64,000 nt of DNA from Acidimicrobiaceae bacterium. GTDB taxonomy: Bacteria; Actinomycetota; Acidimicrobiia; Acidimicrobiales; RAAP-2. The stretch covers positions 317 through 64,316 of the forward strand of contig DAHUZE010000045.1 of NCBI GenBank assembly GCA_027306755.1. The letters run 5' to 3'. Position numbers and translations under genes: made by a program. The first letter of the stretch is position 1. Each line of letters opens with the position of its first letter. Under the pieces are notes generated by a model, which saw nothing but the letters and a program-made list of their open reading frames with translations, made no database searches and had not been told where the DNA came from. Below are positions 26,265-40,188 of this stretch, one piece after another.

Positions 26265-26267
26265 GCG

Positions 26268-27608
26268 TCAGGAGTCGAAGCCGAGCCCCAGGGCGTCCAG
26301 GAGCCGGAGCCACCCGTTGCGCCTGCCGTCGCGGGCGTCGGCCCGTGCGATCGACCATCTCGTGGCCTGGACGACGGCCCAGGCCAGTGGCTCGGGGGGG
26401 AAGGGGACCGGCTTGGACCGCACGAGGTCCAGCTCGGTGCGAGCCGTGCGGGCGCCGCTCAGCAGGTCCAGCATCACCTGGGCGCCGAAGCGGCTGGCGC
26501 CCACCCCCAGGCCGGTGTACCCGGCGGCGTAGGCCACCCGCCCGCGGTGGGCGGTGCCGAAGAAGGCGCAGAACCGCCCGCAAGTGTCGATGGCCCCGCC
26601 CCAGCGATGCGTGAAGCGAAGGTCTTCCAGCTGGGGGAACGTCTCGTAGAAATGGCGGGCCAGCAGGCGGAAGGTGGCGGGCCGCTGGTCGTACTCCGGC
26701 TTGACCTTGCGCCCGTAGTGGTAGACGGCGTCGAACCCTCCCCACAGGATCCGGTCGTCCGCAGTCAGCCGGTAGTAGTGGAACTGGTTGCCGGCATCCG
26801 ATACGCCCTGGCGGTGCTCCCAGCCGACCGACGCCAGCTGCCGGGAAGTCAGCGGCTCGGTCACCAGCACGTAGTCGTAGACGGGCACGATCCGGTAGCG
26901 GACGCGGCGGACGAACGGCTCGAAGGCATTGGTGGCAAGGGCCACCCGCTCGGCGAGCAGCGTGCCCGCCGGCGTGCGCAGCTCCACCCCGGACCTGTTG
27001 TCCGCGAGGCCGAGCACGGGGGAGTGCTCGGCGATCCGGACGCCCGCCTCCAGGCACGCCTCCCGTATGGCCCAGGCCAGCCGGGCCGGGTTGACCATGG
27101 CACAGCCCTCGCGTTCCCACAGGCCGCCCAGGTAGGTGGGTGAGCGGACTTCGGCCTTGACGGCCTCTGCGCCCAGCCACCCGGTGGGAGCCGCTCCCTG
27201 GCCCCGCATTTCCGCCAGCTGCCACGGCTGGGTGGCGACGGAGAGCGCGCCGGTCCGTTCCCAGCCGCAGTCGACCGAGCGGTCGGCGACGAACCGCTCG
27301 ATGGCGTCCAGGTTGTCCATGCCCAGCTGGTGCAGCTGGGGATAGCTCGCAGGGAACCGGGCCCGGCCGTTGGCCTCTCCGTGGGTGAGGCTCGCTTCGC
27401 AGAAGCCTCCGTTCCGTCCGCTGGCCGCCCAGGAGGCGGTCTCGGCCTCGAGCACGGTCACCTTCCGGCCCGGGTCGGCCTTCTTGGCCAGGAGGGCGGT
27501 CCACAGGCCCGTGAACCCTGCGCCCACCACGGCCAGATCGGCACGCTCGGAGCCCACGAGTGCCGGCATCGGCGCAGGCGCGGCGGGGTCGTCGAGCCAG
27601 AAGCTCAT
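26268..27608 (-). CDS. FAD-dependent oxidoreductase (DAO family, gamma-glutamylputrescine-oxidase-like)
   Basis: Dinucleotide-binding motif ADLAVVGAGFTGLWTALLAKK and DAO-like body. ATG 27608 (MSFWLDDP) chosen. Confidence 0.8.
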   Translation of the reverse strand: MSFWLDDPAAPAPMPALVGSERADLAVVGAGFTGLWTALLAKKADPGRKVTVLEAETASWAASGRNGGFCEASLTHGEANGRARFPASYPQLHQLGMDNLDAIERFVADRSVDCGWERTGALSVATQPWQLAEMRGQGAAPTGWLGAEAVKAEVRSPTYLGGLWEREGCAMVNPARLAWAIREACLEAGVRIAEHSPVLGLADNRSGVELRTPAGTLLAERVALATNAFEPFVRRVRYRIVPVYDYVLVTEPLTSRQLASVGWEHRQGVSDAGNQFHYYRLTADDRILWGGFDAVYHYGRKVKPEYDQRPATFRLLARHFYETFPQLEDLRFTHRWGGAIDTCGRFCAFFGTAHRGRVAYAAGYTGLGVGASRFGAQVMLDLLSGARTARTELDLVRSKPVPFPPEPLAWAVVQATRWSIARADARDGRRNGWLRLLDALGLGFDS

Positions 27609-27774
27609 GGGGCGGGCGTCGGAGAACCGGGCGTCGAGGCTGGAGCCCGATCGGGACCGGGGAGGTGAGTCGCCCACGGTCGCAGAGGCGAGGCCGCCGG
27701 CCGCCGCCGGTGCCCGCCCGGTTCCTCCAACAGTCAGGCGCCGGCCGGAGCCGATCACCTACGCTCGCCGCATC

Positions 27775-28923
27775 ATGACGCTGGCGACGCCCACCCTCAC
27801 CAACACCCACCCCGCCCTCCGGCGCTGCTGGCATCCGGTCGCCCGATCCGCCGACGTGGCCGGCGGGCCCGTCCGCACGCTGCTGCTGGGCGAGCCGTGG
27901 GTGCTCGTCCGGCTCGGGCCCGGTGGCGCCGTCCAGGCCTTTCCCGACCGGTGCCCGCACCGCCTGGCGCCCCTTTCCATCGGCTCGCTCGACGTGGTGG
28001 GGGATGCCGTCGCCGTGCTCCGGTGCGCCTACCACGGCTGGTGCTTCGACGCCTCCGGCCGTTGCGTCGAGCTCCCGGCGCTCGGCCCCGGCGCCACGAT
28101 CCCGCCCCGGGCGCGCCTGCGCCCCGGGCACGCGGTGACCGAGCGCCACGGGATGGTCTTCCTGGCGCCCACAGCTCCGGCACCGGGATGCGCCGAGCTT
28201 CCCTCCGTTCCGGAGGCCGAGGACCCCTCGTACATGGCCGGGGACCTGCCGCCGATGCGGACCCGGGCGGCGGCAGGGTTCCTGGCCGACAACTTCTTGG
28301 ACATGGCCCATTTCCCCTTCGTCCACGCTGCAACGTTCGGCGCAGCGGACCCGGTCGTCCCGCCATTGCACGTGGTCCGGGACGGGCTCTCCTTCGTTGC
28401 CGAGAACGAGCACGACTTCGTCAACCGTGAGGACCCGGGCGTGGCGGCTGGCATTCGACCGCTGGTCCAGCGGCGGCGCGTCACCTACCGGGTGCACGCT
28501 CCCTTCCACCTCGTGCTCCGGCTGGACTTCCTGGGCTCCGGCGGTACCAATGTCATCGGGTTCTTCCTCCAGCCCGAGACGGAGGACTCGACCCGCGTGT
28601 ACTCCACGATCTGGCGCAACGACCTTGACCACGACCCGGCCCGCCTGGCCGATGCCGTTGCGTTCGAGGTGAAGGTAGTGCAGGAGGACCTGGCGCTCCA
28701 GGACACGTTCGACGTCCGGGGCTTCCCCCTCGACCCTACGGCGGAGGTGCACACCCGCGCCGACCGGTCGACCCTCGAGCTCCGCCGGATGCTGGCCGAG
28801 CTCGTCAACTCCCCAGCCGACCGGGCTCCCGGGGAGCACGCGGTGCTGCCGGGGCGCGGAGCCGGGGAGCCCTCGACCGGTTCCGGTCCGGCCGTGCTCC
28901 ACGCGACACCCGCCCATGGCTAG
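27775..28923 (+). CDS. Rieske [2Fe-2S] non-heme iron oxygenase, alpha-subunit-only type
   Basis: Rieske motif CPHRLAPLS...LRCAYHGWCF and mononuclear-iron motif DNFLDMAHFPFVH. ATG 27775. Confidence 0.85.
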   Translation: MTLATPTLTNTHPALRRCWHPVARSADVAGGPVRTLLLGEPWVLVRLGPGGAVQAFPDRCPHRLAPLSIGSLDVVGDAVAVLRCAYHGWCFDASGRCVELPALGPGATIPPRARLRPGHAVTERHGMVFLAPTAPAPGCAELPSVPEAEDPSYMAGDLPPMRTRAAAGFLADNFLDMAHFPFVHAATFGAADPVVPPLHVVRDGLSFVAENEHDFVNREDPGVAAGIRPLVQRRRVTYRVHAPFHLVLRLDFLGSGGTNVIGFFLQPETEDSTRVYSTIWRNDLDHDPARLADAVAFEVKVVQEDLALQDTFDVRGFPLDPTAEVHTRADRSTLELRRMLAELVNSPADRAPGEHAVLPGRGAGEPSTGSGPAVLHATPAHG

Positions 28924-29548
28924 CCCCGTGGTCGTGGTGGACCATCCTGCAGTGGCCCACCGGCTGGGGCGCCTGCGGGACATCGTCACCTCGGCAAACG
29001 AGGTGGTGCGGCTGGTCCACGAGGTGTCCACGTTCGTCGCCTACGAGGCGTTGCGGGACCTGGCGACGGAGCACGTGCCGGTGGAGACGCCGGTGGCGCC
29101 GGCCGCAGCCGTGCGGGTGACCGAGACGGTGCTCGTGGTGCCGGTCCTGCGAGCCGGCCTCGGCATGGTCCCGGCCGTCCAGGCGCTGCTGCCGTCGATC
29201 GAGGTGGCCTGCGTGGGCCTGCGCCGCAACGATTCCACCCTCAAGGCCGAGGTCTACCTGGACCAGCTGCCGGCAGACCTGTCGGGGCGCCGAGTGGTCG
29301 TCTGCGACCCGATGCTGGCCACCGGAGGGTCCCTGGCGTCGGTATGCGCCATGGCCGCGGCGCGGGGGGCATCGCAGCTCCAGGCGCTCTGCCTCATCGC
29401 CTCCACGCCGGGCCTGCAGCGCTTCCACCGGGAACAGCCGGGCGTGGCGGTGGCATGTGCTGCGGTGGACCCGTCGCTCGACGAGCGGGGCTACATCGTC
29501 CCCGGACTGGGTGACGCGGGCGACCGGCTCTTCGGCCCGCTGCCCTGA
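28916..29548 (+). CDS. upp: uracil phosphoribosyltransferase
   Basis: PRPP loop VVVCDPMLATGGS and C-terminal GYIVPGLGDAGDRLFG. Overlaps the Rieske gene 3' end by 8 nt. Confidence 0.95.
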   Translation: MASPVVVVDHPAVAHRLGRLRDIVTSANEVVRLVHEVSTFVAYEALRDLATEHVPVETPVAPAAAVRVTETVLVVPVLRAGLGMVPAVQALLPSIEVACVGLRRNDSTLKAEVYLDQLPADLSGRRVVVCDPMLATGGSLASVCAMAAARGASQLQALCLIASTPGLQRFHREQPGVAVACAAVDPSLDERGYIVPGLGDAGDRLFGPLP

Positions 29549-29556
29549 CGGGTCCC

Positions 29557-30759
29557 TCAGCCCCCACCCCTGCTCCCGCCGGCGCCCCTCCCGCCGGTCC
29601 GGCTCCCCCCGGCGAGCGCTGCCAGCCGTCGCAGCGCCGTGAGCGCCGCCAGAGCCCTCTGCGCGGCGCGCCACGTGGTGGAGGACCGCATGGCATCGAG
29701 CTGGGCCTCGGCGTCGGCCAGGGCCGCCCGCAGCGCGGACACGTCCACGTCCACCGCTTCGAGCCGCCGCCCGGCGTCCCCGAGGCTCTCGGACAGCTGG
29801 CGGGCGTCGCTGCGGAGCCGCTGCACCTCGCCGGCGAGTCGGTCCCGCTCGCGCCGGGTCAGCTCCTCTCGCAGGGCCCGCGCCCGCAGTCCGGCCGCCG
29901 AACCCGCGGGCAGGAGCACCGGCGCCTGTGTATGGCGCTCTTCGATCGTGCGGTGCGTCTGCTTCCACACCTCCGCGCCGTGGTCCGTCTTGGAGCTGAG
30001 ACCCTCGCTCCATGAGCGCAGGAGGGCGCTGACCGTGGGCGCGCTCTCGACGCCCAAGGCCGCGGCCGCCCGCATGAGGTGGTCCCAGTCCTCCAGCACC
30101 GGCAGCGACTCGTCCCAGGTGAGGCCCAGGTCCGTCACCGCCTGGCGGGGGACTGCGTAGCCGTTGTTGGGCGTGCGGTTGTCGACCAGGTGGTCCAGGT
30201 AGTCGAACTCGATGGGGTAGTCCACGTGGGGCCGGCTCACGACCTCGTACCCGTCGTCCCCGCCCCACGCCCCCGGCAGGGAACGCACCGTCTGGGTGGC
30301 CACGCACGCCCGAACGACGCGGCCCGGAGCGCGCCCGGCCGCCTCCTCGAAGCATGCCACCCAGTTGGCGAAGGCGACGTCGTCATCGTCGAGCGCGGCC
30401 ACGTAGCGCCCCCGGGCCATCCGGGCGCCCACGTTGAGGGGGTGCGCGCGGCCGCCGCCCTCCACGGGCACCACCCGGACCCGCCCGGCGAACCTGGGGT
30501 GGAACGTCGCCACGGTCGCCTCGACGGCGGCGACGGCGCCCTCCTCGGGGTCGTGGACGAGGACCAGCACCTCAAAGCGGTCGCAGGTCTGCGCGGCCAG
30601 GCTCAAGAGGGCGTCCTCCAGCGTTGCCGGGCGCCGCCCCCGGGTCCGGAGCAAGACAGTGAGGAACGGCGCGCCGTGCTGGTCCCGCGCCGACCCGGCC
30701 CCGGCGACGGCCGGGTGCTCGACGGGAGGGGTGGCCGGGGTCCCGGGCAGCTGGGTCAC
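29557..30759 (-). CDS. family-2 glycosyltransferase with C-terminal coiled-coil
   Basis: GT-A N-domain FLTVLLRTRGRRPATLEDALLSLAAQT...YVAALDDDDV. A ~110-aa heptad-like Arg/Glu/Leu/Ala tail (RERDRLAGEVQRLRSDARQLSESL...). GTG 30759 overlaps the upstream stop (GTGA). Confidence 0.75.
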   Translation of the reverse strand: MTQLPGTPATPPVEHPAVAGAGSARDQHGAPFLTVLLRTRGRRPATLEDALLSLAAQTCDRFEVLVLVHDPEEGAVAAVEATVATFHPRFAGRVRVVPVEGGGRAHPLNVGARMARGRYVAALDDDDVAFANWVACFEEAAGRAPGRVVRACVATQTVRSLPGAWGGDDGYEVVSRPHVDYPIEFDYLDHLVDNRTPNNGYAVPRQAVTDLGLTWDESLPVLEDWDHLMRAAAALGVESAPTVSALLRSWSEGLSSKTDHGAEVWKQTHRTIEERHTQAPVLLPAGSAAGLRARALREELTRRERDRLAGEVQRLRSDARQLSESLGDAGRRLEAVDVDVSALRAALADAEAQLDAMRSSTTWRAAQRALAALTALRRLAALAGGSRTGGRGAGGSRGGG

Positions 30760-31697
30760 ACGTCCGCGTAGGAGAACCGGTGGTCGGCGTAGTCCTGGTC
30801 TACGAACTGCGCCACGGCGTGGTCGTGGTCGATCGCCTCGGGCATGTCGCCCGCGTCGACCCGGGCCCGCAGCTCGGCGCCCACCCGCCGCGACAGTGCG
30901 TCCGGGCTCGCCTCCAGCGCGGCCAGGGCGGCCAGGGCAAGGTCGCGCCGGTCGTAGCGCCAGGGAAGCAGGACGCGAACCCGCGCGGAATGCTCGAGCT
31001 CGCCCTCGCCGGCCAGGATCATCCCGTCTTCTGAGAGGCGCTTGTCGTGCAGCACCCGGGCGGTGGGGCGGTGGACCACCCGCCACCCGGCCAGCCGGGC
31101 GCGCCAGGAGAAGTCCACGTCGTCCCCGTGGAGGAAGAAGAGGTCGGTGTCGAACCCCCCGATGGCCCGGACCACGCTGGCGCGGGCCAGGAAGCAGGAT
31201 CCCGAGGCCCAGCTGGTGTCGCCGGTGCGGGGGTCATGGGCCTTGGGGTGCTCGAGCGGCAGCTGCCGGCCTTCGACGACCCCCACCGTCGGGTCGGCCA
31301 TCCCGGCAACCAGCTCGGTCACCATGCGGGGCGCGGCGTAGGTGTCGGGGTTGACCACGAGGACCAGGTCCTCGGTCATCGTCCGGAAGAGCCGGTTGTG
31401 GCCGCCGGCCGAGCCCAGGTTCGCCCCGAAGTGCAGGTAGCGCGACTCGTCGATCCCTCCGGGCACCAGGTCGTCTGCGGGCAGCGGCGTCGCCCCGCCG
31501 CCAGGGGCTCCCAGGACCGGCTCGGGCGAGCAGTCCCCGATCCACAGCGACGCCGAGCGGATGGCGCCGGCTCGACGCGCACCGGCGCACGCCGCAGCCA
31601 CCGCCTCGGCAAACCGGGTCATGGCGCCGGCCGGCGTCCGGTACAGCACGGTCTGGACCCGCAGGGAAGGGGGTGCCGCGTCGCCCGGCCCGGTCAC
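30756..31697 (-). CDS. family-2 glycosyltransferase (rhamnosyltransferase-like)
   Basis: NLGSAGGHNRL, LVVNPDTY, SGSCFLARASVVRAIGGFD, and FFLHGDDVDFSWRARLAGW. GTG 31697 overlaps the upstream stop (GTGA). Confidence 0.75.
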   Translation of the reverse strand: MTGPGDAAPPSLRVQTVLYRTPAGAMTRFAEAVAAACAGARRAGAIRSASLWIGDCSPEPVLGAPGGGATPLPADDLVPGGIDESRYLHFGANLGSAGGHNRLFRTMTEDLVLVVNPDTYAAPRMVTELVAGMADPTVGVVEGRQLPLEHPKAHDPRTGDTSWASGSCFLARASVVRAIGGFDTDLFFLHGDDVDFSWRARLAGWRVVHRPTARVLHDKRLSEDGMILAGEGELEHSARVRVLLPWRYDRRDLALAALAALEASPDALSRRVGAELRARVDAGDMPEAIDHDHAVAQFVDQDYADHRFSYADV

Positions 31698-32167
31698 CCG
31701 GGCTCGCCGATGTCCTCGTGCCACGTCTCGGGGTTGGCGGCAACGAACGACCCGAGCAGGGCGGCGCACTCCTCGTCGTCCACGACCGCCACCTCGACGC
31801 CGTGGTCGGCCAGCCACTCGTGGGCGCCGACGAACGTCCGCTGCTCGCCCACCACGAGGCCCCCGATCTCGAACTGCCGGATGAGCCCGCTGCAGTACCA
31901 GCACGGCGAGAGCGTGGACACCATCACGGTGTCCCGGTAGTCCCTCCGCCGTCCGGCGTTCCGGAAGGCGGCCGTCTCGGCGTGCAGCGACGGGTCGCCG
32001 TCTTGGACCCGCCGGTTGTGCCCACGCCCGAGCAGGGTTCCGTCACGGTGGAAGAGCGCGGCGCCGATGGGGATGCCGCCCTCCCCCAGCCCCGCGCGCG
32101 CCTCTTCCACCGCCACCCGCAGGTAGCGGCGCGCCTGCTCGTCGGTGATGCCCCTCGCCATGGTCAT
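31694..32167 (-). CDS. cytosine deaminase, yeast Fcy1-type (CMP/dCMP-deaminase zinc-binding superfamily)
   Basis: 157 aa. Zinc motifs HAETAAF and LSPCWYCSG. GGIPIGAAL..DGTLLGRGHN and the C-terminal WHEDIGE closely parallel S. cerevisiae Fcy1 as I remember it. Confidence 0.7.
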   Translation of the reverse strand: MTMARGITDEQARRYLRVAVEEARAGLGEGGIPIGAALFHRDGTLLGRGHNRRVQDGDPSLHAETAAFRNAGRRRDYRDTVMVSTLSPCWYCSGLIRQFEIGGLVVGEQRTFVGAHEWLADHGVEVAVVDDEECAALLGSFVAANPETWHEDIGEPG

Positions 32168-32170
32168 CGC

Positions 32171-33454
32171 TCAGCCTCCCAGAGCCTCGCCCGCAAACGG
32201 ATTGGCCGGCAAGCCGGCGCCGGTCAGCCGCTCGATCAGCAACCGCTCGTCGAGCGCCGGGAGCGAGTCGAAGCGGTGCAGGTGGTCGGGCCGCCAGAGG
32301 AATTCTGACGCATCGCTGAACCCGTCGTAGTGGACGTGCCATCCCCGCTCACGTTCGGCGGCGCTCCAGCGCCCCTGGCGCTCCCGTAGGACCTTGCGCC
32401 GGCCGTGCGCCGACGAGCGGATGGGGTAGTGGCGGTTCAAGAACTTGTAGGGGAAGATGCGGCGGCCGGCGAACGACGTGTCGTGCCCCCCGGTTGCGGC
32501 GAAGCGCACCGGGATCGGCTGGGGCTTCCACGCCTTGCGCTGGACGAAGTCGGCTTGGACTCCGGCGCCGAACTCGAACCACGAGAAGCTCTCGGCGAGG
32601 GAACGGCTGCCGTCCCACGTATCGGCCACGGGGCGGAAGTTCATGACCGTGAAGTCCGCGCAGTTGAAGCCGAAGCGGTCCAGGGCGAAGAGGGCCCGGC
32701 GGAGCGATACCCCGGGCCAGGGAGATTGGCGGATCTCGTCCGCATCCTGGTTCACCACCCAGTCCGCCCCCGAGGAGTGCGCCACCTGTTCCACCCGGGA
32801 CAGGATCGCCTCGAGCTCGAAGGTCCCCGAGGACCCCCCCGCCGGGAACCGCTCGACGGTCAGGCCGGGGTCTGCGGCCGCCCGGCGCACGAGAGCCTCG
32901 TGCGTGCCGTCGGTCGACCAGTTGTCGATGACGTGCACGCGGACCTGGTCCTCCCGCAGCGTGTCCAGGACGTCCTCCACGATGTCCGACTCGTTGAACG
33001 TGGCCATCACGGCCAGCACGTCGAACTCTGCCGGCGTCGCCTCGAGCGTGCTCGGGTCCCAACGGTCGAGCAGGGTGACTGCCACGCTGGCCGCCGGGCC
33101 GCGCCCCGCCCGGCCGCGCAGCGACGGGCGCAGCCCCGTACGCCGGGCGACGCGCTCGAGCCAGCGGGGCGACGGCTCCCCGGCGCACACCGCCACCCCC
33201 GCCTCGGCCGGAGGGATGCGGGGCCGTCGGACGATGACGCTGGCGCTCCCCGCGCCCGCCGCGCCAAGCGTCCGGTCCAGGTACGCACCGAGGGCCGCCA
33301 CGAGCGCGCCGGGGTCCGCCGGGCCGATGGGCGTCCCCTGGCGGCCGCTCGGCTTGGGTCCGCCCGAGCCGTCGGGTGCAACCCCAAGGTCGCCGGGCCG
33401 CCGGACCGCGAAGGCCGGTCGTTGCGACTGCGCAGGGGTCCCGGTGGGGCGCAT
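32171..33454 (-). CDS. family-2 glycosyltransferase with ~140-aa N-terminal extension
   Basis: VLAVMATFNESDIVEDVL, VIDNWSTDGT, and NQDADE (a DxD-like motif). C-terminal FLNRHYPIRS...GWHVHY as seen in polysaccharide-cluster GT2s. ATG 33454. Confidence 0.7.
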   Translation of the reverse strand: MRPTGTPAQSQRPAFAVRRPGDLGVAPDGSGGPKPSGRQGTPIGPADPGALVAALGAYLDRTLGAAGAGSASVIVRRPRIPPAEAGVAVCAGEPSPRWLERVARRTGLRPSLRGRAGRGPAASVAVTLLDRWDPSTLEATPAEFDVLAVMATFNESDIVEDVLDTLREDQVRVHVIDNWSTDGTHEALVRRAAADPGLTVERFPAGGSSGTFELEAILSRVEQVAHSSGADWVVNQDADEIRQSPWPGVSLRRALFALDRFGFNCADFTVMNFRPVADTWDGSRSLAESFSWFEFGAGVQADFVQRKAWKPQPIPVRFAATGGHDTSFAGRRIFPYKFLNRHYPIRSSAHGRRKVLRERQGRWSAAERERGWHVHYDGFSDASEFLWRPDHLHRFDSLPALDERLLIERLTGAGLPANPFAGEALGG

Positions 33455-33513
33455 GCCCCGATCGTACGGCGGCCGCCGGGGTACCCGGCGTGACCGCGGC
33501 CCGCGAGCCGGCG

Positions 33514-35094
33514 TCAGCTGGTGCCGTCCTCCTTCACGATGCGCCGCGCCACATGCTCGCCGATATGGTCCAGCTCTTTGTTCCATGACCACTGGTCGGC
33601 GCCGGCCGGCGGATCGAGCGCCGCGTCCGGGCCGAGCAGCCGCCGCACGGCGGCCTCCAGTGCCTGCGGCGTGGAGGCGCCCACGCACGTGACGGTGCCG
33701 TCGGTGTCCACCAGGATGTTGGTGGGCACCCCGCGGATCCCCAACTGCCTGGCGAAGGAGCCGTCGGGGTCCACCAGGACGGGGCCGCCGACACCCCAGA
33801 GCTCACAGAATTGCCGCGCCTCGGTGAAGGGGTCGACCCCTTCCCAGACGTTCACCAGGATCACTTCCAGACCAGACCGGCCTGCACGTTTGCGCAGATC
33901 TTCGATGATCGGCGCCTCCGCGTTGCAGGGGCCTCACCAGCTGGCGAAGACGTTCACCACGTACTTGCGCCCGGCCCACTCGCCGAGGTCGCGCAGCTCC
34001 TCGGTCCACAGGTCGACCAGCGGGATCGCCGGGAGAGGTCGCCCGACGAGGGGGTGCTCCACCTCCTCGAGCACGGTGGGGGGAGGCCCCTCCAGCAGGT
34101 CGTCCACCACCGTCACCGACCCCGACCCGGCATTGGCGACGAGGAGCCGCCCGCGCCGGGTCGGATGCTCGGTCACGCCCCCCGGCGCCGCGCCCACCGG
34201 GATGCGCGACCACTCGGCGCCGTCCAAGCCGAGCACGCTGACGCTGCCGTCGCCCCGGTTGGCCACGTAGAGCCGGTCGCCGTCCTGGCCCATGGTGAGC
34301 CCCACGGGGGCGTTCGGGACCACCAGCTCGGCCCGCACGGCCTGGGCCTCGGGGTCCAGGCGGCTGACCGTGCTGGCGAGAGAGTCGGCGATGAAGGCGT
34401 CCCCGCTGGCGTTGTCGACCCCGATGGCGCAGGGCCCCTGGCGCAGCGGGACCTGGCCGAGCACCTCGAGCCGCTCGGCGTCCACGATGGTCACCGAGGA
34501 GGCGACGAAGTTGACGCAGAAGACGCGGTCCCGTTGCCCGTCCACGGCGATGGCGCCCGCGCCCAGCTCGGCGGGCACGGCGGCGATGCGCTCCAACCGG
34601 TCCAGGTCGATCACGCTCATGGTGCAGCCGACGGCGTCCCCGCAGTAGAGCCGGCGCCGGTCCTCGTCGATCTCCAGCCCCGCCGGGTAGGACCCGACGG
34701 GAATCGTGGTGACCACCTCGTTGGTGGCGGTGTCGATCACCGACACCTGGTCCGATCGGGCGTCAGCAGTGAAGACCCGGCCGGTGCGGGTGTCCAGCGA
34801 GATGTCGATGGGCTCGGCGCCCACCTCCCCCGTGGCCACCACCGCGGCCCGCTCGACGTCCACCACGGAAACGGAGTTGGACCGCGAGCAGGCGACGTAG
34901 GCCAATCCGGTGCGGCGGTCGACGATCACGCCCTCGGGATCGAGCCCCACCACCACCTCTCCGTGGTAGGCGTAGGGCACCGGGCCGCTGCCGGTGATGC
35001 GGCAGCTCGGGCCGCTGGCCACGACGGGCACGCCGCCCCCCCGGGCATCTGTCTGGCCGTCCGCCTCCGTGGGGCCGGCTGGCACCGCCTGCAT
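33514..35094 (-). CDS. predicted selenoprotein: YVTN beta-propeller fused to a TlpA/ResA-like thioredoxin-fold domain with a U-x-x-C redox motif (in-frame UGA at 33936..33934)
   Basis: Tracked ORFs 33934..35445 and 33514..33864 share a frame. The 23 intervening codons were hand-translated and contain no stop. The joined sequence reads ...KYVVNVFASW-U-GPCNAEAPIIEDLRKRAGRSGLEVILVNVWEG... There are 7-8 YVTN-type blades. ATG 35094 has AAAGGAG 5 nt upstream. The gene is divergent from selA by 120 bp, and a SECIS-like hairpin follows the UGA. Confidence 0.75.
33881..33929 (-). promoter_or_regulatory. candidate bacterial SECIS hairpin, +5 to +53 nt after the UGA
   Basis: Lower helix: CCUGCA(+5..+10) pairs with UGCAGG(+48..+53), plus CG/CG. 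Apical helix: GCGCCGAUC(+19..+27) pairs with GAUCUGCGC(+34..+42), 8 of 9 pairs. Loop AUCGAA(+28..+33) contains G and U. Folded by eye only. Confidence 0.45.
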
Positions 35095-35214
35095 CGAGTC
35101 TCCTTTCGCGCCCTGGTCGCTGCCCGCCCCGTCGTGGCCGACCACGCACGGGCACCCGCCACCCGGCCTGCCTGGCTGGGCATTCGGGGCGCAGGCGGAG
35201 CATGCTAGGGCACG

Positions 35215-36510
35215 ATGACCGACGACGCGCCGCCGCCCTCCGTCGACGCGCTGGCGCGGTCCATCGCCGACGTGGCCCTGCCGCACCCGCTGCTCGTGGC
35301 GGCGGCGCGCGAGGCGGTGGCCGCGGGGGACCCCGGGTCCGCCCGTGCCCGGGCCGAGCGGCGCGCCCGCGGCCTGCTCCGCCCGGTGGTCAACGCCACC
35401 GGGGTGCTCCTCCACACCAATTTGGGTCGGGCGGCGCTCGGCCACAGCCAGGAGCCCGGCGCCTGGAACCTGGAGCTGGACCTGGAGACGGGGGCCCGCG
35501 GGTCACGGCGGAGCCACGCGGCAGCCCTGGTGGCGCTGGCAGCCGGGGCGGAGGACGCCCTGGTCGTGAACAACGGCGCCGGCGCCGTCCTGCTGGCGCT
35601 CTCGGTGGTGGCGGGGGGGCTCCCGGTGCTCGTGAGCCGCGGGGAGCTGGTGGAGATCGGCGGCGGGTTCCGTGTCCCCGACGTGTGCGCCGTTTCCGGA
35701 GCGCTCATGGTGGAGGTCGGGACGACCAACCGGACCCGCCGCACCGACTACGAGCGCGCGCTGGCCGCACACCCCGGCGCCGGGGCGATCCTGAAGGTGC
35801 ACCCCTCTAATTTCCGGGTCCAGGGCTTCACCGAATCCGTTGCGGTCTCCGAGTTGGCGCCGCTCGGGCCGCCCGTCGTGTGCGACCTGGGCTCGGGACT
35901 GCTGGACGAGCGGACGCCGTGGCTGGACGGCCCGCCGCCCTCCTGGCTCGCCGGCGAGCCCGCTGCCCGCCAGACGCTGTCCGCCGGCGCCGCGCTGGTG
36001 ACGTTCTCGGGCGACAAGCTGCTGGGCGGCCCGCAGGCGGGCGTCATCGCCGGGCGCGCGGACCTTGTGGCGGCCTGCGCCCGCCACCCGCTGGCGCGGG
36101 CCCTGCGCCCGGGCGGGCTGGTGCTGGCGGCCCTGCAGGCCACCCTGCTCTCCTACCTTCGCCGGGATGGCCAGGCCATCCCCTTCTGGCGGATGGCCAC
36201 GGCCCCCGAGGCGGCAGTCGAAGCCCGGGCCGAGGCGGTGGCGGGGGCCCTGGGCCGCGCCGGGGTGCGGGCCGACGCCGTCCGCTGCACGGCCGTGGCC
36301 GGGGGAGGATCGGTGCCCGGGCTCGGGATCCCCTCCGCCGGCGTGGCGGTCGACGGCGATCACCGGGCGTCGCTGCGGCGGCACGACCCTCCCGTGATGG
36401 CGCGGATGGAAGCGGGCCGTACGCTGTGCGACTTGCGCAGCGTGGACCCGTCCTTGGACCAGGTGCTCGTGGAGGCGGTGGGCGCCGCGGTCGCCGGCGG
36501 GAAGCGCTGA
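35215..36510 (+). CDS. selA: L-seryl-tRNA(Sec) selenium transferase
   Basis: SRGELVEIGGGFRVPDV and the PLP-lysine motif FSGDKLLGGPQAG. Followed by selB. Confidence 0.9.
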   Translation: MTDDAPPPSVDALARSIADVALPHPLLVAAAREAVAAGDPGSARARAERRARGLLRPVVNATGVLLHTNLGRAALGHSQEPGAWNLELDLETGARGSRRSHAAALVALAAGAEDALVVNNGAGAVLLALSVVAGGLPVLVSRGELVEIGGGFRVPDVCAVSGALMVEVGTTNRTRRTDYERALAAHPGAGAILKVHPSNFRVQGFTESVAVSELAPLGPPVVCDLGSGLLDERTPWLDGPPPSWLAGEPAARQTLSAGAALVTFSGDKLLGGPQAGVIAGRADLVAACARHPLARALRPGGLVLAALQATLLSYLRRDGQAIPFWRMATAPEAAVEARAEAVAGALGRAGVRADAVRCTAVAGGGSVPGLGIPSAGVAVDGDHRASLRRHDPPVMARMEAGRTLCDLRSVDPSLDQVLVEAVGAAVAGGKR

Positions 36511-36514
36511 GCCG

Positions 36515-38350
36515 GTGCACGTCGTCGCCACCGCCGGGCACGTGGACCACGGGAAGTCGACCCTGGTCCGGGCCCTCACGGGCACGGACCCGGACCGCCT
36601 GGCCGAGGAGAAGGCCCGCGGGCTCACGATCGACCTCGGCTTCGCCTGGACGGCGCTCCCTTCGGGACGCGAGCTGGCGTTCGTGGACGTGCCCGGCCAT
36701 GTGCGGTTCCTCAAGAACATGCTGGCCGGCGTGGGCGGTGTGGACGCCTGCCTCTTCGTCGTGGACGCCACGGAAGGGTGGAAGCCCCAGTCCGAGGAGC
36801 ACCTGCGGATCCTGGACCTCCTGGGGGTAGCCCACGGGGTAGTTGCCCTGACCCGGGCCGGCGCGCCGGGCGGCGTGGATGGGGACGACCGGGCCGAGCT
36901 GGTGGAGCTGGCCCGGCTGGAGGTTGAGGAGCGCATGGCCGGAACCGCGCTGGCCGGCGCCCCCATCGTGGCCGTCGACGCTCCCGCCGGCCGGGGCCTT
37001 GCGGAGCTGGCCGGGGCCTTGGACCAGATGCTGGCGGCCACGCCCGAAGCGGCGGACCGCGACCGGCCCCGGCTGTGGATCGACCGCAGCTTCGTGCTTC
37101 GGGGCACCGGGACCGTCGTCACCGGCACGCTGACCGGTGGCCGCCTGACCGTCGGGGACCGGCGCGAGGTGGTGCCCGGGCCCGGGCCGTCCTTGGAGGC
37201 CCGCCCGCTCCGGGTGCGGGGGCTCCAGAGCATGGAGCAGAGCGTGGAGGTGGTGGGCCCCGGTCGGCGGGTAGCCGTCAACGTGACCGGCGTGGCCCAG
37301 GGAGACCGGGGGACCGTCCACCGCGGGGACCTGGTCCGGGGGGCGGCCCTCGTGCGGCCCCTCCAGTGGGAGGCGGCGCTGGTGTTCGACGCCACGCTCA
37401 CCCTCCTTCCGTCGGCCCCGTCGCCCATCGGGCGCAACGGCCGCGGCGCCTTCCACGCCTACGTGGGCTCGGGCGAGCATCCCGTGCGGCTCCGCCTCCT
37501 CGGGAGCGAGGCGCTGGAGCCGGGACAGCACGGCTGCGTGCGGCTCCGGTTCCCGGTGCCGCTCGCGCTCATGCCGGGAGACCGCTACATCCTGCGGGAC
37601 GCCGGCAGGGCGGCCACCATCGGCGGGGGGACCGTCCTGGACGTGGCGCCCGTGCTGCGCCCGTCCCGGGCGCGCCCGGACCGCTCGGTGGACCGGGTGG
37701 TGGCCGAGCGCGGCTGGGTGGACGCAGCGCTGCTCGAGCGGCTGACGGGGGAGCGGCGGGCGCCCACGGCGGGCGACCGGTGGGTTGTCGACCCCGCGGC
37801 GATGGCCGCGGCGACCGGCTCGGTCCGGGCCAAGGTGCGAGACGCCGGTCCTCTCGGGCTGGACCTGGGCGAGCTGGACGAGCGCGGCCGGGTGGCGCTG
37901 GGCGAGCTGGTGCGCACCGGCGACGTGGCGATGGACCGGGGCCGGGCCGTGGCGGCGACCGACGCAGCCGCCGGGACTGCGGGCGCCACGCTGGCCCGGC
38001 ACCCGTTCCTGCGGTTGCTGGACGAGTCGCCGTTCGCGCCTCCGGACCCGGCGGCGGCCGGTGTGGACCGCTCGGAGCTCGGCCACCTCGTGCGCTCGGG
38101 TCTGGTGGTCGAACGGGACGGCCACTACTTCTCGCAGCAGGCGGTCGACCGGGCGGCCGGCGTGGTCGCCGCCCTGCTGGCTGACCACCCTCAAGGGGTG
38201 ACGGTCTCGGTCGTGCGTACCGCGCTCGGGAGCACCCGCAAGCATGTCGTCCCGCTCCTGGCCCTCCTGGACGCCCTCGGCGTCACCCGCCGCCGCGGTG
38301 ACCTCCGGATCGGCGGTCCGCGTCTCCCGGCCCCGGTGGGCGGCCCATGA
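36515..38350 (+). CDS. selB: selenocysteine-specific translation elongation factor
   Basis: G-domain motifs ATAGHVDHGKSTL and FVDVPGH. An EF-Tu-like domain II/III is followed by a long winged-helix-like C-terminal extension. GTG lies 4 nt after the selA stop. Confidence 0.9.
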   Translation: MHVVATAGHVDHGKSTLVRALTGTDPDRLAEEKARGLTIDLGFAWTALPSGRELAFVDVPGHVRFLKNMLAGVGGVDACLFVVDATEGWKPQSEEHLRILDLLGVAHGVVALTRAGAPGGVDGDDRAELVELARLEVEERMAGTALAGAPIVAVDAPAGRGLAELAGALDQMLAATPEAADRDRPRLWIDRSFVLRGTGTVVTGTLTGGRLTVGDRREVVPGPGPSLEARPLRVRGLQSMEQSVEVVGPGRRVAVNVTGVAQGDRGTVHRGDLVRGAALVRPLQWEAALVFDATLTLLPSAPSPIGRNGRGAFHAYVGSGEHPVRLRLLGSEALEPGQHGCVRLRFPVPLALMPGDRYILRDAGRAATIGGGTVLDVAPVLRPSRARPDRSVDRVVAERGWVDAALLERLTGERRAPTAGDRWVVDPAAMAAATGSVRAKVRDAGPLGLDLGELDERGRVALGELVRTGDVAMDRGRAVAATDAAAGTAGATLARHPFLRLLDESPFAPPDPAAAGVDRSELGHLVRSGLVVERDGHYFSQQAVDRAAGVVAALLADHPQGVTVSVVRTALGSTRKHVVPLLALLDALGVTRRRGDLRIGGPRLPAPVGGP

Positions 38351-39345
38351 TCCGCCTGACCCAGACCGCGCCGGGCGGGGGGTGCTCGTGCAAGATCGCC
38401 CCGGGAATGCTGGAGCGCCTGCTGGCGGCGGCGGGATCGGGCATCGGCGCCGTCCCGGCGCCGGGGGGGGATCTCGTGTGCGGCACGGAGCACGGGGACG
38501 ACGCGGCCGTCGTCCGCCTGGACGGGTCCACCAGGGGCATCGTGTCCACGACGGACTTCTTCCCCCCGGTGGTGGACGACGCCTTCGACTGGGGCCGGAT
38601 CGCAGCGGCCAACGCGCTCTCCGACGTGTACGCGATGGGCGGCGAGCCGCTGGTTGCCCTCAGCCTGCTGGCGTGGCCGGTGGGCGAGCTGCCCGACGAG
38701 CTGGCCGTGGAGGTGCTGCGCGGCGGGCTGGCCGTGGCGGCGGAAGCGGCGTGCCCGATCGCCGGCGGCCATTCGATCACGGACACCACGCCCAAGTACG
38801 GCCTGGCCGTCACCGGCACGGTGGATCTCGACCACCTCCTGCGAAACGACCGCGCCCGGCCGGGCGACCCCCTGTCGCTGACCAAGCCGATCGGCGTGGG
38901 CGTGCTCAACGCCCGGCACAAGGCGACGGGTGAGCGGTTCGATCAGGCCGTGCGCCTGATGACCACCCTCAACCGCGACGCCGCCCGGGCGGCCGTCGCC
39001 GCCGGCGCGATCGCGGCTACCGACGTCACCGGGTTCGGCCTCCTCGGGCACCTCTTCAAGATGGTCCGGGCCAGCGGGGTGGCGGCCGTGGTGGACGCCG
39101 CCGCGGTGCCGGTGCTGGACGGCGCCCGGGAGTCGCTGGCCGAGGGGTACGTGCCCGGCGGTTCGCGCCGCAACCTGGAGTGGGTGCGGCCGCACCTCGC
39201 CTCCGGGCTGACCGAGGAGGAGCTTGTGCTGCTGGCGGACGCCCAGACGTCCGGCGGCCTGCTCGTGGCAGCCGAGATCCCCGGCTCGCCGGTGATCGGA
39301 GAGGTGGTGGCCGCGGGGGACGGCCCGGCTCTCCGGATCCGCTGA
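38347..39345 (+). CDS. selD: selenide, water dikinase (selenophosphate synthetase), Cys-type
   Basis: N-terminal MIRLTQTAPGGGCSCKIAPG (Cys rather than Sec at the catalytic position). AIR-synthase-like body DDAAVVRL...TTDFFPPVVDD. ATGA overlap with selB. Confidence 0.9.
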   Translation: MIRLTQTAPGGGCSCKIAPGMLERLLAAAGSGIGAVPAPGGDLVCGTEHGDDAAVVRLDGSTRGIVSTTDFFPPVVDDAFDWGRIAAANALSDVYAMGGEPLVALSLLAWPVGELPDELAVEVLRGGLAVAAEAACPIAGGHSITDTTPKYGLAVTGTVDLDHLLRNDRARPGDPLSLTKPIGVGVLNARHKATGERFDQAVRLMTTLNRDAARAAVAAGAIAATDVTGFGLLGHLFKMVRASGVAAVVDAAAVPVLDGARESLAEGYVPGGSRRNLEWVRPHLASGLTEEELVLLADAQTSGGLLVAAEIPGSPVIGEVVAAGDGPALRIR

Positions 39346-39354
39346 CGGGCCGGA

Positions 39355-39383: not shown

Positions 39384-39391
39384 CCGTCGGC

Positions 39392-40169: not shown

Positions 40170-40188
40170 GGCGCCGGGCGGAGAGGGG

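What the first reader, a model, noticed from the sequence alone, without database searches (positions are those of the whole stretch)
29557..35094. Selenoprotein heads a tightly coupled five-gene operon with three GT2 glycosyltransferases and a cytosine deaminase
All five genes lie on the minus strand in this order: selenoprotein (35094..33514), a 59-nt gap, GT2 (33454..32171), a 3-nt gap, Fcy1-type deaminase (32167..31694), a GTGA overlap, GT2 (31697..30756), a GTGA overlap, then GT2 with a coiled-coil tail (30759..29557). This spacing implies co-transcription and translational coupling. I do not recognise a redox-active Sec propeller protein combined with three glycosyltransferases and a pyrimidine deaminase as a known pathway. 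It could be a glycan or nucleoside-derived product assembly line that needs a low-potential thiol/selenol step. The function is open.
Basis: inference. Interest (0 to 1): 0.65.

Follow-up and report, generated by a model that had tools for sequence, protein, structure and literature searches.

The report
Selenoprotein beside separate glycosyltransferase operon
The five genes are real and correctly identified, but comparison with relatives indicates two unrelated units placed side by side: an overlooked, conserved selenocysteine-containing redox protein that belongs with the neighbouring selenocysteine machinery, and a separate sugar-transferase operon that has picked up a pyrimidine-salvage deaminase.

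Summary
Five minus-strand genes sit at the stated coordinates, with a 59-nt gap, a 3-nt gap and two GTGA overlaps. The domain calls are right: a YVTN/YncE propeller fused to a redoxin with an in-frame TGA (W-U-G-P-C), three GT-A/GT2 enzymes, and a yeast-Fcy1-type cytosine deaminase.

The reading as one five-gene pathway operon is not supported.
- **Selenoprotein side:** of about 10 distinct loci carrying the selenoprotein, only the closest relative also has the GT genes. There a Peptidase_M55 gene on the opposite strand separates them.
- **GT side:** of 85 loci carrying GT2a, 84 lack the selenoprotein and 83 lack the deaminase.
- **GT core:** the recurring partners of GT2a are GT2b, a GT2c-like gene (sometimes fused to GT2a), a Methyltransf_24 gene and YfhO.
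- **Own promoter:** the 59-nt gap holds a -10-like TACGAT box 6 nt before the GT2a ATG. That leaderless-type layout recurs in GT2a orthologues.

The selenoprotein instead lies head-to-head with selA-selB-selD-tRNA(Sec), as in its two closest relatives. All 55 close homologues are annotated as truncated at "...FASW". No Cys form was found, and NCBIfam has no model for it.

Verdict: a composite locus, containing a new, unannotated variant of the known thioredoxin-fold UxxC selenoproteins. Moderate interest.

The parts
39392..39487 (+). tRNA-Sec (selC), anticodon TCA
   Evidence: ARAGORN; Rfam RF01852, 68.4 bits against a gathering score of 47
38347..39345 (+). selD, selenide water dikinase, Cys form (GGGCSCK); its ATG overlaps the selB stop (ATGA)
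   Evidence: NCBIfam TIGR00476, 374 bits; translation
36515..38350 (+). selB, Sec-specific elongation factor
   Evidence: Pfam GTP_EFTU, SelB-wing_3 and Beta-barrel_SelB
35215..36510 (+). selA, Sec synthase, divergent from the selenoprotein across a 120-nt spacer
   Evidence: Pfam SelA, 311 bits
33514..35094 (-). Selenoprotein of 526 aa: YVTN/YncE-type beta-propeller (about residues 40-340) plus a TlpA/ResA-like redoxin domain (about 346-487) with active site W-U387-G-P-C390. Invariant Cys at 31, 69, 193, 222 and 430. No TM segment or signal peptide.
   Evidence: All 55 close homologues end at FASW. Read-through is conserved in 9 other loci.
35100..35105 (-). Shine-Dalgarno AAGGAG, 5 nt upstream of the selenoprotein ATG
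   Evidence: sequence read directly
33934..33936 (-). UGA selenocysteine codon
   Evidence: same position in every homologue read
33874..33933 (-). SECIS-like stem-loop directly after the UGA. The apical hairpin GGCGC-C-GAUC-AUCGAA-GAUC-U-GCGC is at 33916..33891, starting 20 nt after the U of UGA.
   Evidence: RNAalifold on 9 orthologues: 20 pairs, one compensatory G-C/A-U pair. The single-sequence fold is not better than shuffles.
33474..33490 (-). GC-rich hairpin CGCCGGG-UAC-CCCGGCG in the 59-nt gap. A possible U-tract-less terminator for the selenoprotein; untested.
   Evidence: no better than shuffles
33461..33466 (-). -10-like hexamer TACGAT (TANNNT), 6 nt upstream of the GT2a ATG; inferred promoter of a leaderless GT2a transcript
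   Evidence: The same or a similar box lies 5-9 nt before an in-frame start in 10 of 24 non-redundant GT2a loci. TANNNT rule from PMC3898074.
32171..33454 (-). GT2a: GT-A glycosyltransferase of a distinct conserved family (motifs TFNE, DNWSTD, DADE, HYPIRS, GWHVHYD) with an N-terminal alpha/beta domain
   Evidence: Pfam PF13704 and PF00535; alignments A1 and A3; AF2 pLDDT 92 and GT-A fold matches
31694..32167 (-). Fcy1-type cytosine deaminase, 157 aa
   Evidence: E 1e-34, full length, to yeast cytosine deaminase; H/E/C/C and the pocket residues aligning with yeast I33, N51, F114, W152, D155 conserved
30756..31697 (-). GT2b: GT2-type glycosyltransferase, recurrent partner of GT2a
   Evidence: Pfam PF13632 and PF13641; adjacent to GT2a in 19 of 85 loci
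29557..30759 (-). GT2c: GT2 glycosyltransferase with a C-terminal Ala/Arg/Glu/Leu-rich tail (coiled coil not tested)
   Evidence: Pfam PF00535, 38.6 bits; weak PDB match to PglI-type 9jma; a GT2c-like domain is fused to GT2a in P0177
28916..29548 (+). upp, uracil phosphoribosyltransferase, convergent; stops 8 nt apart
   Evidence: Pfam UPRTase, 201 bits

Best explanation
The locus is a lineage-specific juxtaposition of two independent units in an Acidimicrobiales bacterium from mine-drainage and soil metagenomes.

Unit 1 is a compact selenocysteine island. selA-selB-selD (translationally coupled) and tRNA-Sec sit on the plus strand. A Shine-Dalgarno-led, probably monocistronic gene runs divergently from them. 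It encodes a cytoplasmic selenoprotein: a seven-bladed-type YVTN propeller fused to a TlpA/ResA-fold redoxin whose thioredoxin-like active site is W-U-G-P-C. The UGA is decoded as Sec with the help of the hairpin that starts about 20 nt downstream. I infer that the protein is a selenol/thiol-disulfide oxidoreductase, with the propeller (four invariant Cys) as the partner- or substrate-binding module. Its physiological substrate is unknown.

Unit 2 is a four-gene operon, GT2a-deaminase-GT2b-GT2c. I infer that it starts from its own -10 box in the 59-nt gap as a leaderless mRNA and that internal translation is coupled through the overlapping stops and starts. The three soluble GT-A enzymes are the conserved core. 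In relatives they are accompanied by a Methyltransf_24 methyltransferase and the GT-C enzyme YfhO, so the core most likely builds or decorates a polyprenyl-phosphate-linked envelope glycan. The Fcy1-type cytosine deaminase is a recent insertion into this operon. It most likely does ordinary pyrimidine salvage (cytosine to uracil, then upp makes UMP).

Shown: gene identities, conservation of the Sec codon, and the neighbourhood statistics. Inferred: the promoter, the transcript boundaries and the biochemical roles.
For: Sec gene:
- The TGA and the downstream ORF are conserved in all 9 other loci read through.
- All 55 close homologues are truncated at FASW.
- A hairpin after the UGA carries one compensatory pair.
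- The Sec machinery is adjacent.

Association with sel genes rather than GTs:
- L087: selD-selB-selA head-to-head with the selenoprotein, followed by an aldo-keto reductase and a GST.
- L092: selA head-to-head with the selenoprotein, then an opposite-strand M55 gene, then GT2a-deaminase-GT2b-GT2c. This is a roughly 0.9-kb indel relative to the window.
- Five other lineages: monocistronic between UDG and Peptidase_S8.

GT module:
- Of 85 GT2a loci, GT2b is present in 19, a GT2c-like gene in 13, Methyltransf_24 in 14, YfhO in 6, the selenoprotein in 1 and the deaminase in 2.
- P0177 is a GT2c-like/GT2a fusion.
- The GT2a model has a GT-A fold.

Own promoter:
- TACGAT plus 6 nt plus ATG in the window. 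TANNNT lies 5-9 nt before an in-frame start in 10 of 24 non-redundant GT2a loci, including ones where GT2a is clearly the first gene.
- TANNNT centred 7-12 bp upstream of the transcription start, with abundant leaderless mRNAs, is established for actinobacteria (PMC3898074).

Deaminase:
- Full-length match to yeast Fcy1 with all catalytic and pocket residues conserved.
- Its orthologue in L094 lies 8.7 kb from GT2a.
Against: - No transcript data exist: the metatranscriptomes of the same study hold no contigs of this locus. Read-through from the selenoprotein into GT2a therefore cannot be excluded.
- No canonical terminator is found in the gap, and the gap hairpin is no more stable than shuffles.
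- The -10 box is a 3-base-specified motif. It rests on conservation in a handful of partly related loci, and the scan tried several candidate starts per locus.
- The selenoprotein and the GT cluster are still neighbours in the one close relative. That fits shared descent (about 78% nucleotide identity) but does not rule out a link.
- Covariation support for the SECIS is thin, because the hairpin lies in conserved coding sequence.
- Only three related lineages show the link between the sel genes and the selenoprotein.
Confidence: 0.7

Rival explanations
1. One reading: one five-gene operon. The Sec propeller-redoxin supplies a low-potential selenol/thiol step to a glycan or nucleoside-derived assembly line formed by the three GT2 enzymes and the deaminase.
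For: Same strand and only 59 nt between the selenoprotein and GT2a. No canonical terminator or sigma-70 promoter is found by the consensus scan. The two gene sets are also close together in L092. The best fold matches of GT2a are the Cys-directed S-glycosyltransferases SunS and ThuS, though at TM 0.3-0.4 only.
Against: In L092 an opposite-strand gene splits the two sets. 84 of 85 GT2a loci lack the selenoprotein, and 9 of about 10 distinct selenoprotein loci lack the GTs. A conserved -10-like box lies in front of GT2a. The selenoprotein is necessarily monocistronic in five lineages.
Confidence: 0.08
2. The five genes are co-transcribed by read-through in this organism, but with no functional connection: an accidental operon created when the intervening M55 gene was lost.
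For: Short gap and no U-tract terminator. The indel relative to L092 falls exactly at this junction.
Against: The GT2a -10 box is retained. There is no RNA evidence either way.
Confidence: 0.2
3. The deaminase is a working part of the GT pathway. For example, it could tune pyrimidine or UDP-sugar supply for the GTs, or act on a cytosine-like moiety of the product, rather than being a passenger.
For: It sits between GT2a and GT2b with a 3-nt gap and a 4-nt overlap, and this is conserved in L092. upp lies directly downstream in the window. dcd and another phosphoribosyltransferase are nearby.
Against: It is absent from 83 of 85 GT2a loci, and in L094 the orthologue lies 8.7 kb away. Every residue that shapes the free-cytosine pocket of Fcy1 is conserved.
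Confidence: 0.15
4. The TGA is a true stop: a stand-alone propeller protein followed by a separate small thioredoxin-like gene or a pseudogene remnant.
For: Gene callers and NCBI annotate it this way, as 'YncE family protein'. The single-sequence SECIS fold is not significant.
Against: The stop falls exactly at the first Cys position of a WCGPC motif, inside a Redoxin domain that spans it. The TGA, the frame and the downstream 110-140 codons are conserved from 44% to 83% identity. GC3 stays high after the TGA. The sel genes are adjacent.
Confidence: 0.02

Closest known systems
[quoted passage not shown]
   Same: Redoxin/TlpA-like fold, with Sec in the first position of a CxxC-type motif (UGPC) and a hairpin after the UGA. 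The expected chemistry is thiol/selenol-disulfide exchange.
   Different: It has an N-terminal propeller of about 340 aa with four invariant Cys, and it appears cytoplasmic. No Cys-form orthologue was found among 1.84 billion representatives. No NCBIfam model reaches its cut-off. No propeller fusion is named in the 2026 catalogue or the GOS paper. I could not retrieve the catalogue's example HEU0032618.1 to compare directly.
NF041054 'ResA-like WAxxUGC motif-containing protein' (a Sec-containing ResA-like family)
   Same: A ResA-like redoxin domain that contains Sec.
   Different: It scores 45 bits against a cut-off of 300. The motif is FASW-U-GPC rather than WAxxUGC, and the architecture differs.
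ResA / TlpA / DsbE(CcmG) extracytoplasmic thiol-disulfide oxidoreductases (PDB 4nmu, 1kng, 1st9, 1jfu)
   Same: Best sequence matches for residues 346-487 (E 1e-12 to 1e-7).
   Different: Those are membrane-anchored or secreted Cys enzymes of cytochrome maturation. This protein has no TM segment or signal peptide, carries a classical thioredoxin WxGPC motif with Sec, and fails the ResA and DsbE cut-offs.
YVTN/YncE seven-bladed beta-propellers (Methanosarcina surface-layer protein 1l0q; E. coli YncE 3vgz); eukaryotic and bacterial NHLRC2 (thioredoxin-like domain plus NHL propeller; recalled from memory, not tested)
   Same: YVTN repeat propeller (TIGR02276, 120 bits; 1l0q E 3e-33). NHLRC2 also joins a Trx-like domain to a propeller.
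   Different: It is not a YncE equivalog (57 bits against 400). In NHLRC2 the domain order is reversed, the propeller is NHL-type and there is no Sec.
Yeast Fcy1 cytosine deaminase (PDB 1uaq, 1ox7, 1p6o)
   Same: Full-length alignment at E 1e-34. Zn ligands, the catalytic Glu and the cytosine pocket, including the C-terminal W..EDIGE lid, are conserved.
   Different: It is bacterial and embedded in a GT operon. Its activity is untested.
GT2/GT-A glycosyltransferase clusters with YfhO (GT-C) that decorate envelope polymers via polyprenyl-phosphate sugars, such as CsbB/GtrB-YfhO (general knowledge)
   Same: GT-A fold with a DxD motif (DADE). Weak matches to polyprenyl-phosphate GTs: PpgS, PcManGT 6yv7, GtrB, PglI. 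YfhO and a methyltransferase lie next to GT2a in relatives.
   Different: All three GTs here lack TM segments. The GT2a family has no close solved structure (TM at most 0.4). In the window YfhO lies 25 kb away. Substrates are unknown.

Membership tests
Bacterial selenoprotein gene (Sec-decoded UGA) | In-frame UGA at a position occupied by a redox Cys in homologues, inside a continuous domain | tested here: met
   FASW-U-GPC lies within a Redoxin domain spanning residues 351-471. It aligns with the CxxC of ResA, TlpA and thioredoxins.
Bacterial selenoprotein gene (Sec-decoded UGA) | UGA and downstream reading frame conserved in orthologues | tested here: met
   9 of 9 other loci read through. 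All 55 database homologues stop at FASW.
Bacterial selenoprotein gene (Sec-decoded UGA) | SECIS stem-loop just downstream of the UGA | tested here: inconclusive
   A conserved hairpin lies 20 nt after the UGA, with 20 pairs, of which 1 is compensatory. It overlaps conserved coding sequence, and the single-sequence z-score is -1.09. No loop-nucleotide rule for bacterial SECIS elements was checked.
Bacterial selenoprotein gene (Sec-decoded UGA) | selA, selB, selC and selD present in the genome | tested here: met
   All four lie directly adjacent.
Bacterial selenoprotein gene (Sec-decoded UGA) | Selenium incorporated into the protein | not testable with these tools
   Needs 75Se labelling or mass spectrometry.
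ResA/TlpA/DsbE thiol-disulfide oxidoreductases | Family HMM above the curated cut-off | tested here: not met
   ResA PRK03147: 57 bits against 170. DsbE TIGR00385: 48.5 against 123. TlpA NF047696: 40.7 against 230. Only the generic Pfam Redoxin domain passes.
ResA/TlpA/DsbE thiol-disulfide oxidoreductases | Extracytoplasmic location (signal peptide or membrane anchor) | tested here: not met
   Maximum 19-residue hydropathy is 1.25, and the N-terminus is not hydrophobic.
NF041054 WAxxUGC ResA-like selenoprotein | HMM cut-off and WAxxUGC motif | tested here: not met
   45 bits against 300; the motif here is FASWUGPC.
YncE / YVTN beta-propeller | YVTN repeats / YNCE domain | tested here: met
   TIGR02276: 120.5 bits against 27.85. 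PF21783: 38.7 against 27.1. The YncE equivalog NF052280 is not met (57 against 400).
Fcy1-type cytosine deaminase | CDA fold with H-x-E and PC-x-x-C zinc site | tested here: met
   PF00383, 68 bits; HAE and PCWYC align with the yeast Zn ligands and catalytic Glu (H62/E64/C91/C94 in yeast numbering, from memory).
Fcy1-type cytosine deaminase | Cytosine pocket and C-terminal lid (N51, F114, W152, D155 in yeast numbering, recalled from memory) | tested here: met
   GHN..tF and W-H-EDIGE are conserved in the full-length alignment, E 1e-34.
Fcy1-type cytosine deaminase | Cytosine to uracil activity | not testable with these tools
   Needs an enzyme assay or a 5-fluorocytosine sensitivity test.
GT2 (GT-A fold) glycosyltransferases | GT2 Pfam domain above gathering score, in all three proteins | tested here: met
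   GT2a: PF13704 30.3 bits against 27.5, PF00535 28.5 against 23.3. GT2b: PF13632 32 against 27. GT2c: PF00535 38.6 against 23.3.
GT2 (GT-A fold) glycosyltransferases | GT-A fold and DxD motif | tested here: met
   For GT2a only: AF2 pLDDT 92 and GT-A matches to SunS, SpsA and GtrB. D239 is invariant and D237 nearly invariant (at least 90%) in DADE. GT2b and GT2c were not modelled.
Single five-gene operon | Same strand, short gaps, no opposing genes | tested here: met
Single five-gene operon | Gene order conserved in relatives | tested here: not met
   The selenoprotein-GT2a adjacency is seen in 1 of 85 GT2a loci, and there it is interrupted by an opposite-strand gene. GT2a-GT2b(-GT2c) is conserved.
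Single five-gene operon | No internal promoter or terminator | tested here: inconclusive
   The E. coli-type scan finds none. An actinobacterial -10 TANNNT box is conserved 5-9 nt before the GT2a start, and there is a hairpin at 33490..33474.
Single five-gene operon | One transcript observed | not testable with these tools
   The three metatranscriptomes of the same study carry no contigs of the locus.

The most novel reading that the evidence does not exclude
The propeller-redoxin is a Sec-only selenoprotein family with no Cys orthologues. In one clade of Acidimicrobiales it is inherited together with selA-selB-selD-selC as a minimal selenocysteine island. It would then be the anchor selenoprotein that keeps the Sec trait alive there, a role usually ascribed to FdhA or SelD. 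A copy in Streptomyces coelicoflavus, flanked by a transposase and an integrase, hints at horizontal spread. The propeller with four invariant cysteines would be a new kind of substrate module for a selenothioredoxin.
Probability: 0.25. Interest if true: 0.55.

Novelty: new variant of a known kind. Interest (0 to 1): 0.35.

Why it matters
For genome annotation: at least 55 database clusters of this protein are truncated at the Sec codon and named 'YncE family' or 'hypothetical'. Their C-terminal catalytic halves are lost or called as orphan ORFs, and NCBI has no model for the family. Recognising it adds a selenoprotein family to Acidimicrobiales, a group in which the selenoproteome is only now being explored.

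For biology: a family that appears to exist only in the Sec form, sitting next to the Sec machinery, is a good case for asking what keeps the Sec trait in a lineage. It is also a tractable target, since the active-site Sec/Cys could be used to trap the propeller's partner.

For the original claim: the result warns that same-strand adjacency with a short gap is not evidence of a shared pathway in high-GC actinobacteria, where leaderless promoters fit into a few dozen bases.

Tried and rejected
- **Genome-collection scan with the U-to-C protein.** The seed WCGPCNAE pulled in only distant thioredoxin-domain relatives (25-40% identity) and no orthologue.
- **Full-length structure of the selenoprotein.** The domain arrangement and the geometry of the Cys cluster therefore remain unmodelled.
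- **AF2 of GT2a with 10 sequences.** This gave pLDDT 46 and was discarded. It was redone with 81 sequences.
- **RNA evidence.** Three metatranscriptomes from the same study gave only 18-40 nt spurious matches.
- **Sigma-70 and intrinsic-terminator consensus scan.** It found nothing. This is uninformative for a 73% GC actinobacterium.
- **Search for Cys forms.** Redoxin proteins of about 480-550 aa from the exhaustive search (P0285, P0348, P0374, P0262, P0273) lack the propeller.
- **P0177 as a GT2a-GT2b fusion.** Rejected: there is no similarity to GT2b. It is a GT2c-like/GT2a fusion.
- **Anti-phage defence reading of deaminase plus GTs.** There are no meaningful PADLOC hits.
- **Scan for further in-frame TGA candidates in the window.** It found only the atpG/atpD junction. 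The filter also missed the true case, so it is not sensitive.
- **S-glycosylation of the selenoprotein by GT2a.** This was suggested by the SunS/ThuS fold matches. I rejected it as a working model because the TM-scores are low and 84 of 85 GT2a loci lack the selenoprotein.

Full report
**1. What is in the sequence**

The window is 72-75% GC.

The junctions were read directly:
- The selenoprotein stop is TGA at 33516..33514, and the GT2a ATG is at 33454, leaving a 59-nt gap.
- The GT2a stop is followed by GCG and then the deaminase ATG, with GGGAGG upstream.
- Deaminase/GT2b and GT2b/GT2c overlap as GTGA.
- The GT2c stop lies 8 nt from the stop of a convergent upp gene.

The first gene starts at ATG 35094, behind an AAGGAG box 5 nt upstream. 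It contains one in-frame TGA (33936..33934) in the context FASW-TGA-GGC-CCC-TGC, that is W-U-G-P-C.

Pfam gives the following:
- Selenoprotein: YNCE/NHL propeller repeats plus Redoxin (66.8 bits).
- All three GTs: GT2-type families above their gathering scores.
- Small gene: dCMP_cyt_deam_1.

The small gene aligns end to end with yeast cytosine deaminase Fcy1 (E 1e-34). The zinc ligands, the catalytic Glu, and the pocket and lid residues are all conserved. None of the five proteins has a hydrophobic segment long enough for a membrane span.

**2.

The full Sec-decoding machinery lies directly upstream of the selenoprotein and divergent from it:
- selA, 35215..36510
- selB, 36515..38350
- selD, 38347..39345 (Cys form; its ATG overlaps the selB stop)
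- tRNA-Sec, 39392..39487

This rests. The rest of the window is core chromosome: glyA, a GT4 enzyme, the atp operon, dcd, oxidoreductases and a PucR regulator. The DNA is found in mine-drainage and soil metagenomes. The nearest named relatives are Acidimicrobiales MAGs.

**3. The selenoprotein is real, conserved and unannotated**

A search of 5.8 billion proteins returned 55 close homologues at 44-82% identity. All are 360-434 aa long and cover only about 70% of the query. Each one that I inspected ends in ...FASW.

I read nine other loci through the stop. In every case this gave W-U-G-P-C-N-A-(E/A)-A-P followed by a further 85-140 codons of conserved redoxin domain.

An exhaustive HMMER search with the post-TGA half against 1.84 billion representatives found only short orphan fragments as strong hits. 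No protein of about 520 aa with a Cys in that position turned up. The longer redoxin proteins further down the list have unrelated N-termini. The family therefore appears to be Sec-only.

RNAalifold on nine orthologues predicts a stem-loop directly after the UGA. Its apical hairpin begins 20 nt after the UGA, and one pair shows a G-C/A-U compensatory change. This is weak as covariation evidence, because the hairpin lies in conserved coding sequence and the single-sequence fold is not significant.

Seven Cys/Sec positions are invariant: C31, C69, C193 and C222 in the propeller, U387 and C390 in the active site, and C430.

No NCBIfam selenoprotein model reaches its cut-off. The Sec-containing 'WAxxUGC ResA-like' family scores 45 bits against 300. 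NCBI names the truncated halves 'YncE family protein' or 'hypothetical protein'.

A 2026 catalogue of prokaryotic selenoproteins lists several thioredoxin-fold UxxC families (Redoxin, thiol:disulfide interchange, Prx-like), but I found no propeller fusion in it (PMC13188914). The GOS study describes other fusions of Trx-fold selenoproteins with Cys-bearing domains, but does not mention a propeller (PMC2398784).

**4. Is the selenoprotein part of the GT/deaminase unit?**

The neighbourhoods of about ten distinct selenoprotein loci were as follows.
- **L092** (83% protein identity, about 78% nucleotide identity) shows selA head-to-head with the selenoprotein. A Peptidase_M55 gene on the opposite strand comes next, then GT2a-deaminase-GT2b-GT2c with 4-nt overlaps at all three junctions. 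At nucleotide level the two loci align on both sides of a roughly 0.9-kb indel that falls exactly between the selenoprotein stop and the GT2a start.
- **L087** (72%) keeps selD-selB-selA head-to-head with the selenoprotein. A 131-aa ORF, an aldo-keto reductase and a GST follow.
- **Five further lineages** (about 65%) place the gene between a divergent UDG gene and a convergent Peptidase_S8 gene, so it must be monocistronic there.
- **L080 and the Streptomyces coelicoflavus copy** have yet other neighbours.

From the other side, a metagenome scan with a GT2a alignment gave 80 loci. Together with five loci fetched earlier, the 85 GT2a loci contain:

| Gene near GT2a | Loci (of 85) |
|---|---|
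| GT2b | 19 |
| GT2c-like | 13 |
| Methyltransf_24 | 14 |
| YfhO | 6 |
| Deaminase | 2 (adjacent only in L092) |
| Selenoprotein | 1 (L092) |

Some relatives fuse a GT2c-like domain to GT2a in one polypeptide (P0177). The conserved unit is therefore the GT trio. The deaminase is a late arrival, and the selenoprotein belongs with the sel genes rather than with the GTs.

**5. The 59-nt gap**

The gap contains a GC-rich hairpin (33490..33474), which is no better than shuffled sequence. It also contains TACGAT (33466..33461), 6 nt before the GT2a ATG.

L092 has the same TACGAT box in the intergenic region that must hold its GT2a promoter. More distant orthologues have TAGCCT, TAACGT or TACGAT 5-9 nt before an in-frame GTG. 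In L094 that GTG is the called start. In all, 10 of 24 non-redundant loci show the arrangement. The loci that lack it include those where GT2a follows another GT gene or is fused to one.

In Mycobacterium tuberculosis, TANNNT centred 7-12 bp upstream of the transcription start is the dominant promoter element, and leaderless mRNAs are abundant (PMC3898074). I therefore infer that GT2a has its own leaderless-type promoter.

This is a prediction. The only metatranscriptomes linked to the source samples contain nothing from this locus.

**6. What the parts probably do**

*Selenoprotein.* The redoxin domain is closest to ResA, CycY and TlpA in sequence (E about 1e-12). However, it carries the classical thioredoxin motif with Sec (WUGPC) and has no export signal. 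I infer a cytoplasmic selenol/thiol-disulfide oxidoreductase whose propeller binds the partner. The substrate is open.

*GT module.* With 81 sequences, AlphaFold2 gives a confident GT2a model (pLDDT 92). Foldseek finds only the GT-A core in solved structures: SunS/ThuS, GalS1, RmlT, SpsA and GtrB, all at TM 0.3-0.4. GT2a is thus a distinct GT-A family. Three lines of evidence point to assembly or decoration of a polyprenyl-linked envelope glycan:
- weak sequence matches of the three GTs to polyprenyl-phosphate or lipid-linked GTs;
- the company of YfhO and a methyltransferase in relatives;
- a YfhO homologue 25 kb away in the window.

This role is inferred, not shown.

*Deaminase.* It most likely performs cytosine salvage, with upp next door.

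**7. A positional parallel**

A 2026 preprint on Actinomarina, also in the Acidimicrobiia, reports that selC and selA sit in or at the edge of a tRNA-bounded hypervariable region devoted to envelope sugar decoration (doi 10.64898/2026.04.03.716425). That fits a positional rather than functional link between sel genes and GT clusters. It is a different lineage, so I use it only as context.

**8. Verdict**

The anatomy is confirmed. The 'selenoprotein-headed five-gene pathway operon' reading is not supported by comparative genomics.

What is new is modest but real. It is a conserved, apparently Sec-only propeller-redoxin selenoprotein that current annotation truncates, and in this clade it sits next to the Sec machinery.

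I rate it a new variant of a known kind, with interest 0.35. The most novel reading still open is that it is the anchor selenoprotein of a minimal, co-inherited Sec island (probability about 0.25).

Noticed in passing
window 35215..39487: Complete Sec machinery as one compact cluster: selA, then selB after a 4-nt gap, then selD overlapping as ATGA, then tRNA-Sec 46 nt after selD. SelD is the Cys form (GGGCSCK).
   Followed up: yes
L097 10001..11500 (Streptomyces coelicoflavus, GCA_042734225.1): A 44%-identical copy of the selenoprotein, with intact TGA (FASW*GPCNAEAP) and downstream ORF, lies between a mutator-type transposase and a phage-type integrase. No sel genes occur within 10 kb. This hints at horizontal transfer into a genus where I would not expect the Sec trait (from memory, not checked).
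   Followed up: partly
L092 about 3540..3600: After the same TACGAT box, L092 has a 14-codon upstream ORF (MPDERPLQATRTAR*). Its TGA overlaps the GTG start of GT2a. In the window the corresponding ATG is in frame with GT2a.
   Followed up: partly
window 58156..60717 (+) and 46265..47110 (-): A YfhO homologue (57% identity to the YfhO next to GT2a in L094) lies 25 kb from the GT cluster. A Peptidase_M55 homologue (42% identity to the gene that separates the selenoprotein and GT2a in L092) lies 13 kb away. This points to local rearrangement of an ancestral arrangement.
   Followed up: partly
window 39540..40169 (+): A phosphoribosyltransferase just after tRNA-Sec is the orthologue (78-82% identity) of the gene that lies convergent to GT2b in L093, L094 and L099. 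This is further evidence that the sel island sits inside a rearranged GT neighbourhood.
   Followed up: partly
window 40956..41033 (-): ARAGORN calls a tRNA-Gly(ACC) inside the aldolase-like ORF 40039..41277. Rfam reports nothing there, so it is probably a false positive.
   Followed up: no
window 23284..24561 (-), 28916..29548 (+), 31694..32167 (-), 39540..40169 (+): Four nucleotide-metabolism genes lie within 17 kb: a two-domain dCTP deaminase, upp, the cytosine deaminase and a phosphoribosyltransferase. This may be coincidence or a loose pyrimidine-salvage neighbourhood.
   Followed up: no
window 34005..34008 and 39447..39449: In DNA run X1, one contig carries a 3-nt in-frame deletion in the selenoprotein gene. 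Several contigs carry a 3-base variant in tRNA-Sec, where depth is about 5-fold higher. Related strains or species therefore share the sample.
   Followed up: no
L081, L084, L085, L088, L090: In the roughly 65%-identity clade the selenoprotein has a stable neighbourhood of its own. On one side are UDG, an AhpD-like CMD protein, an FAA hydrolase and NifU. On the other are Peptidase_S8, a MerR regulator and glutamate dehydrogenase. The AhpD-like and NifU genes might hint at a redox context, but they are on the other strand.
   Followed up: no
window 24577..29031 (-): The 1484-aa ORF listed there is a high-GC artefact. It overlaps real genes on both strands (PEBP, DAO, Rieske oxygenase, upp).
   Followed up: partly
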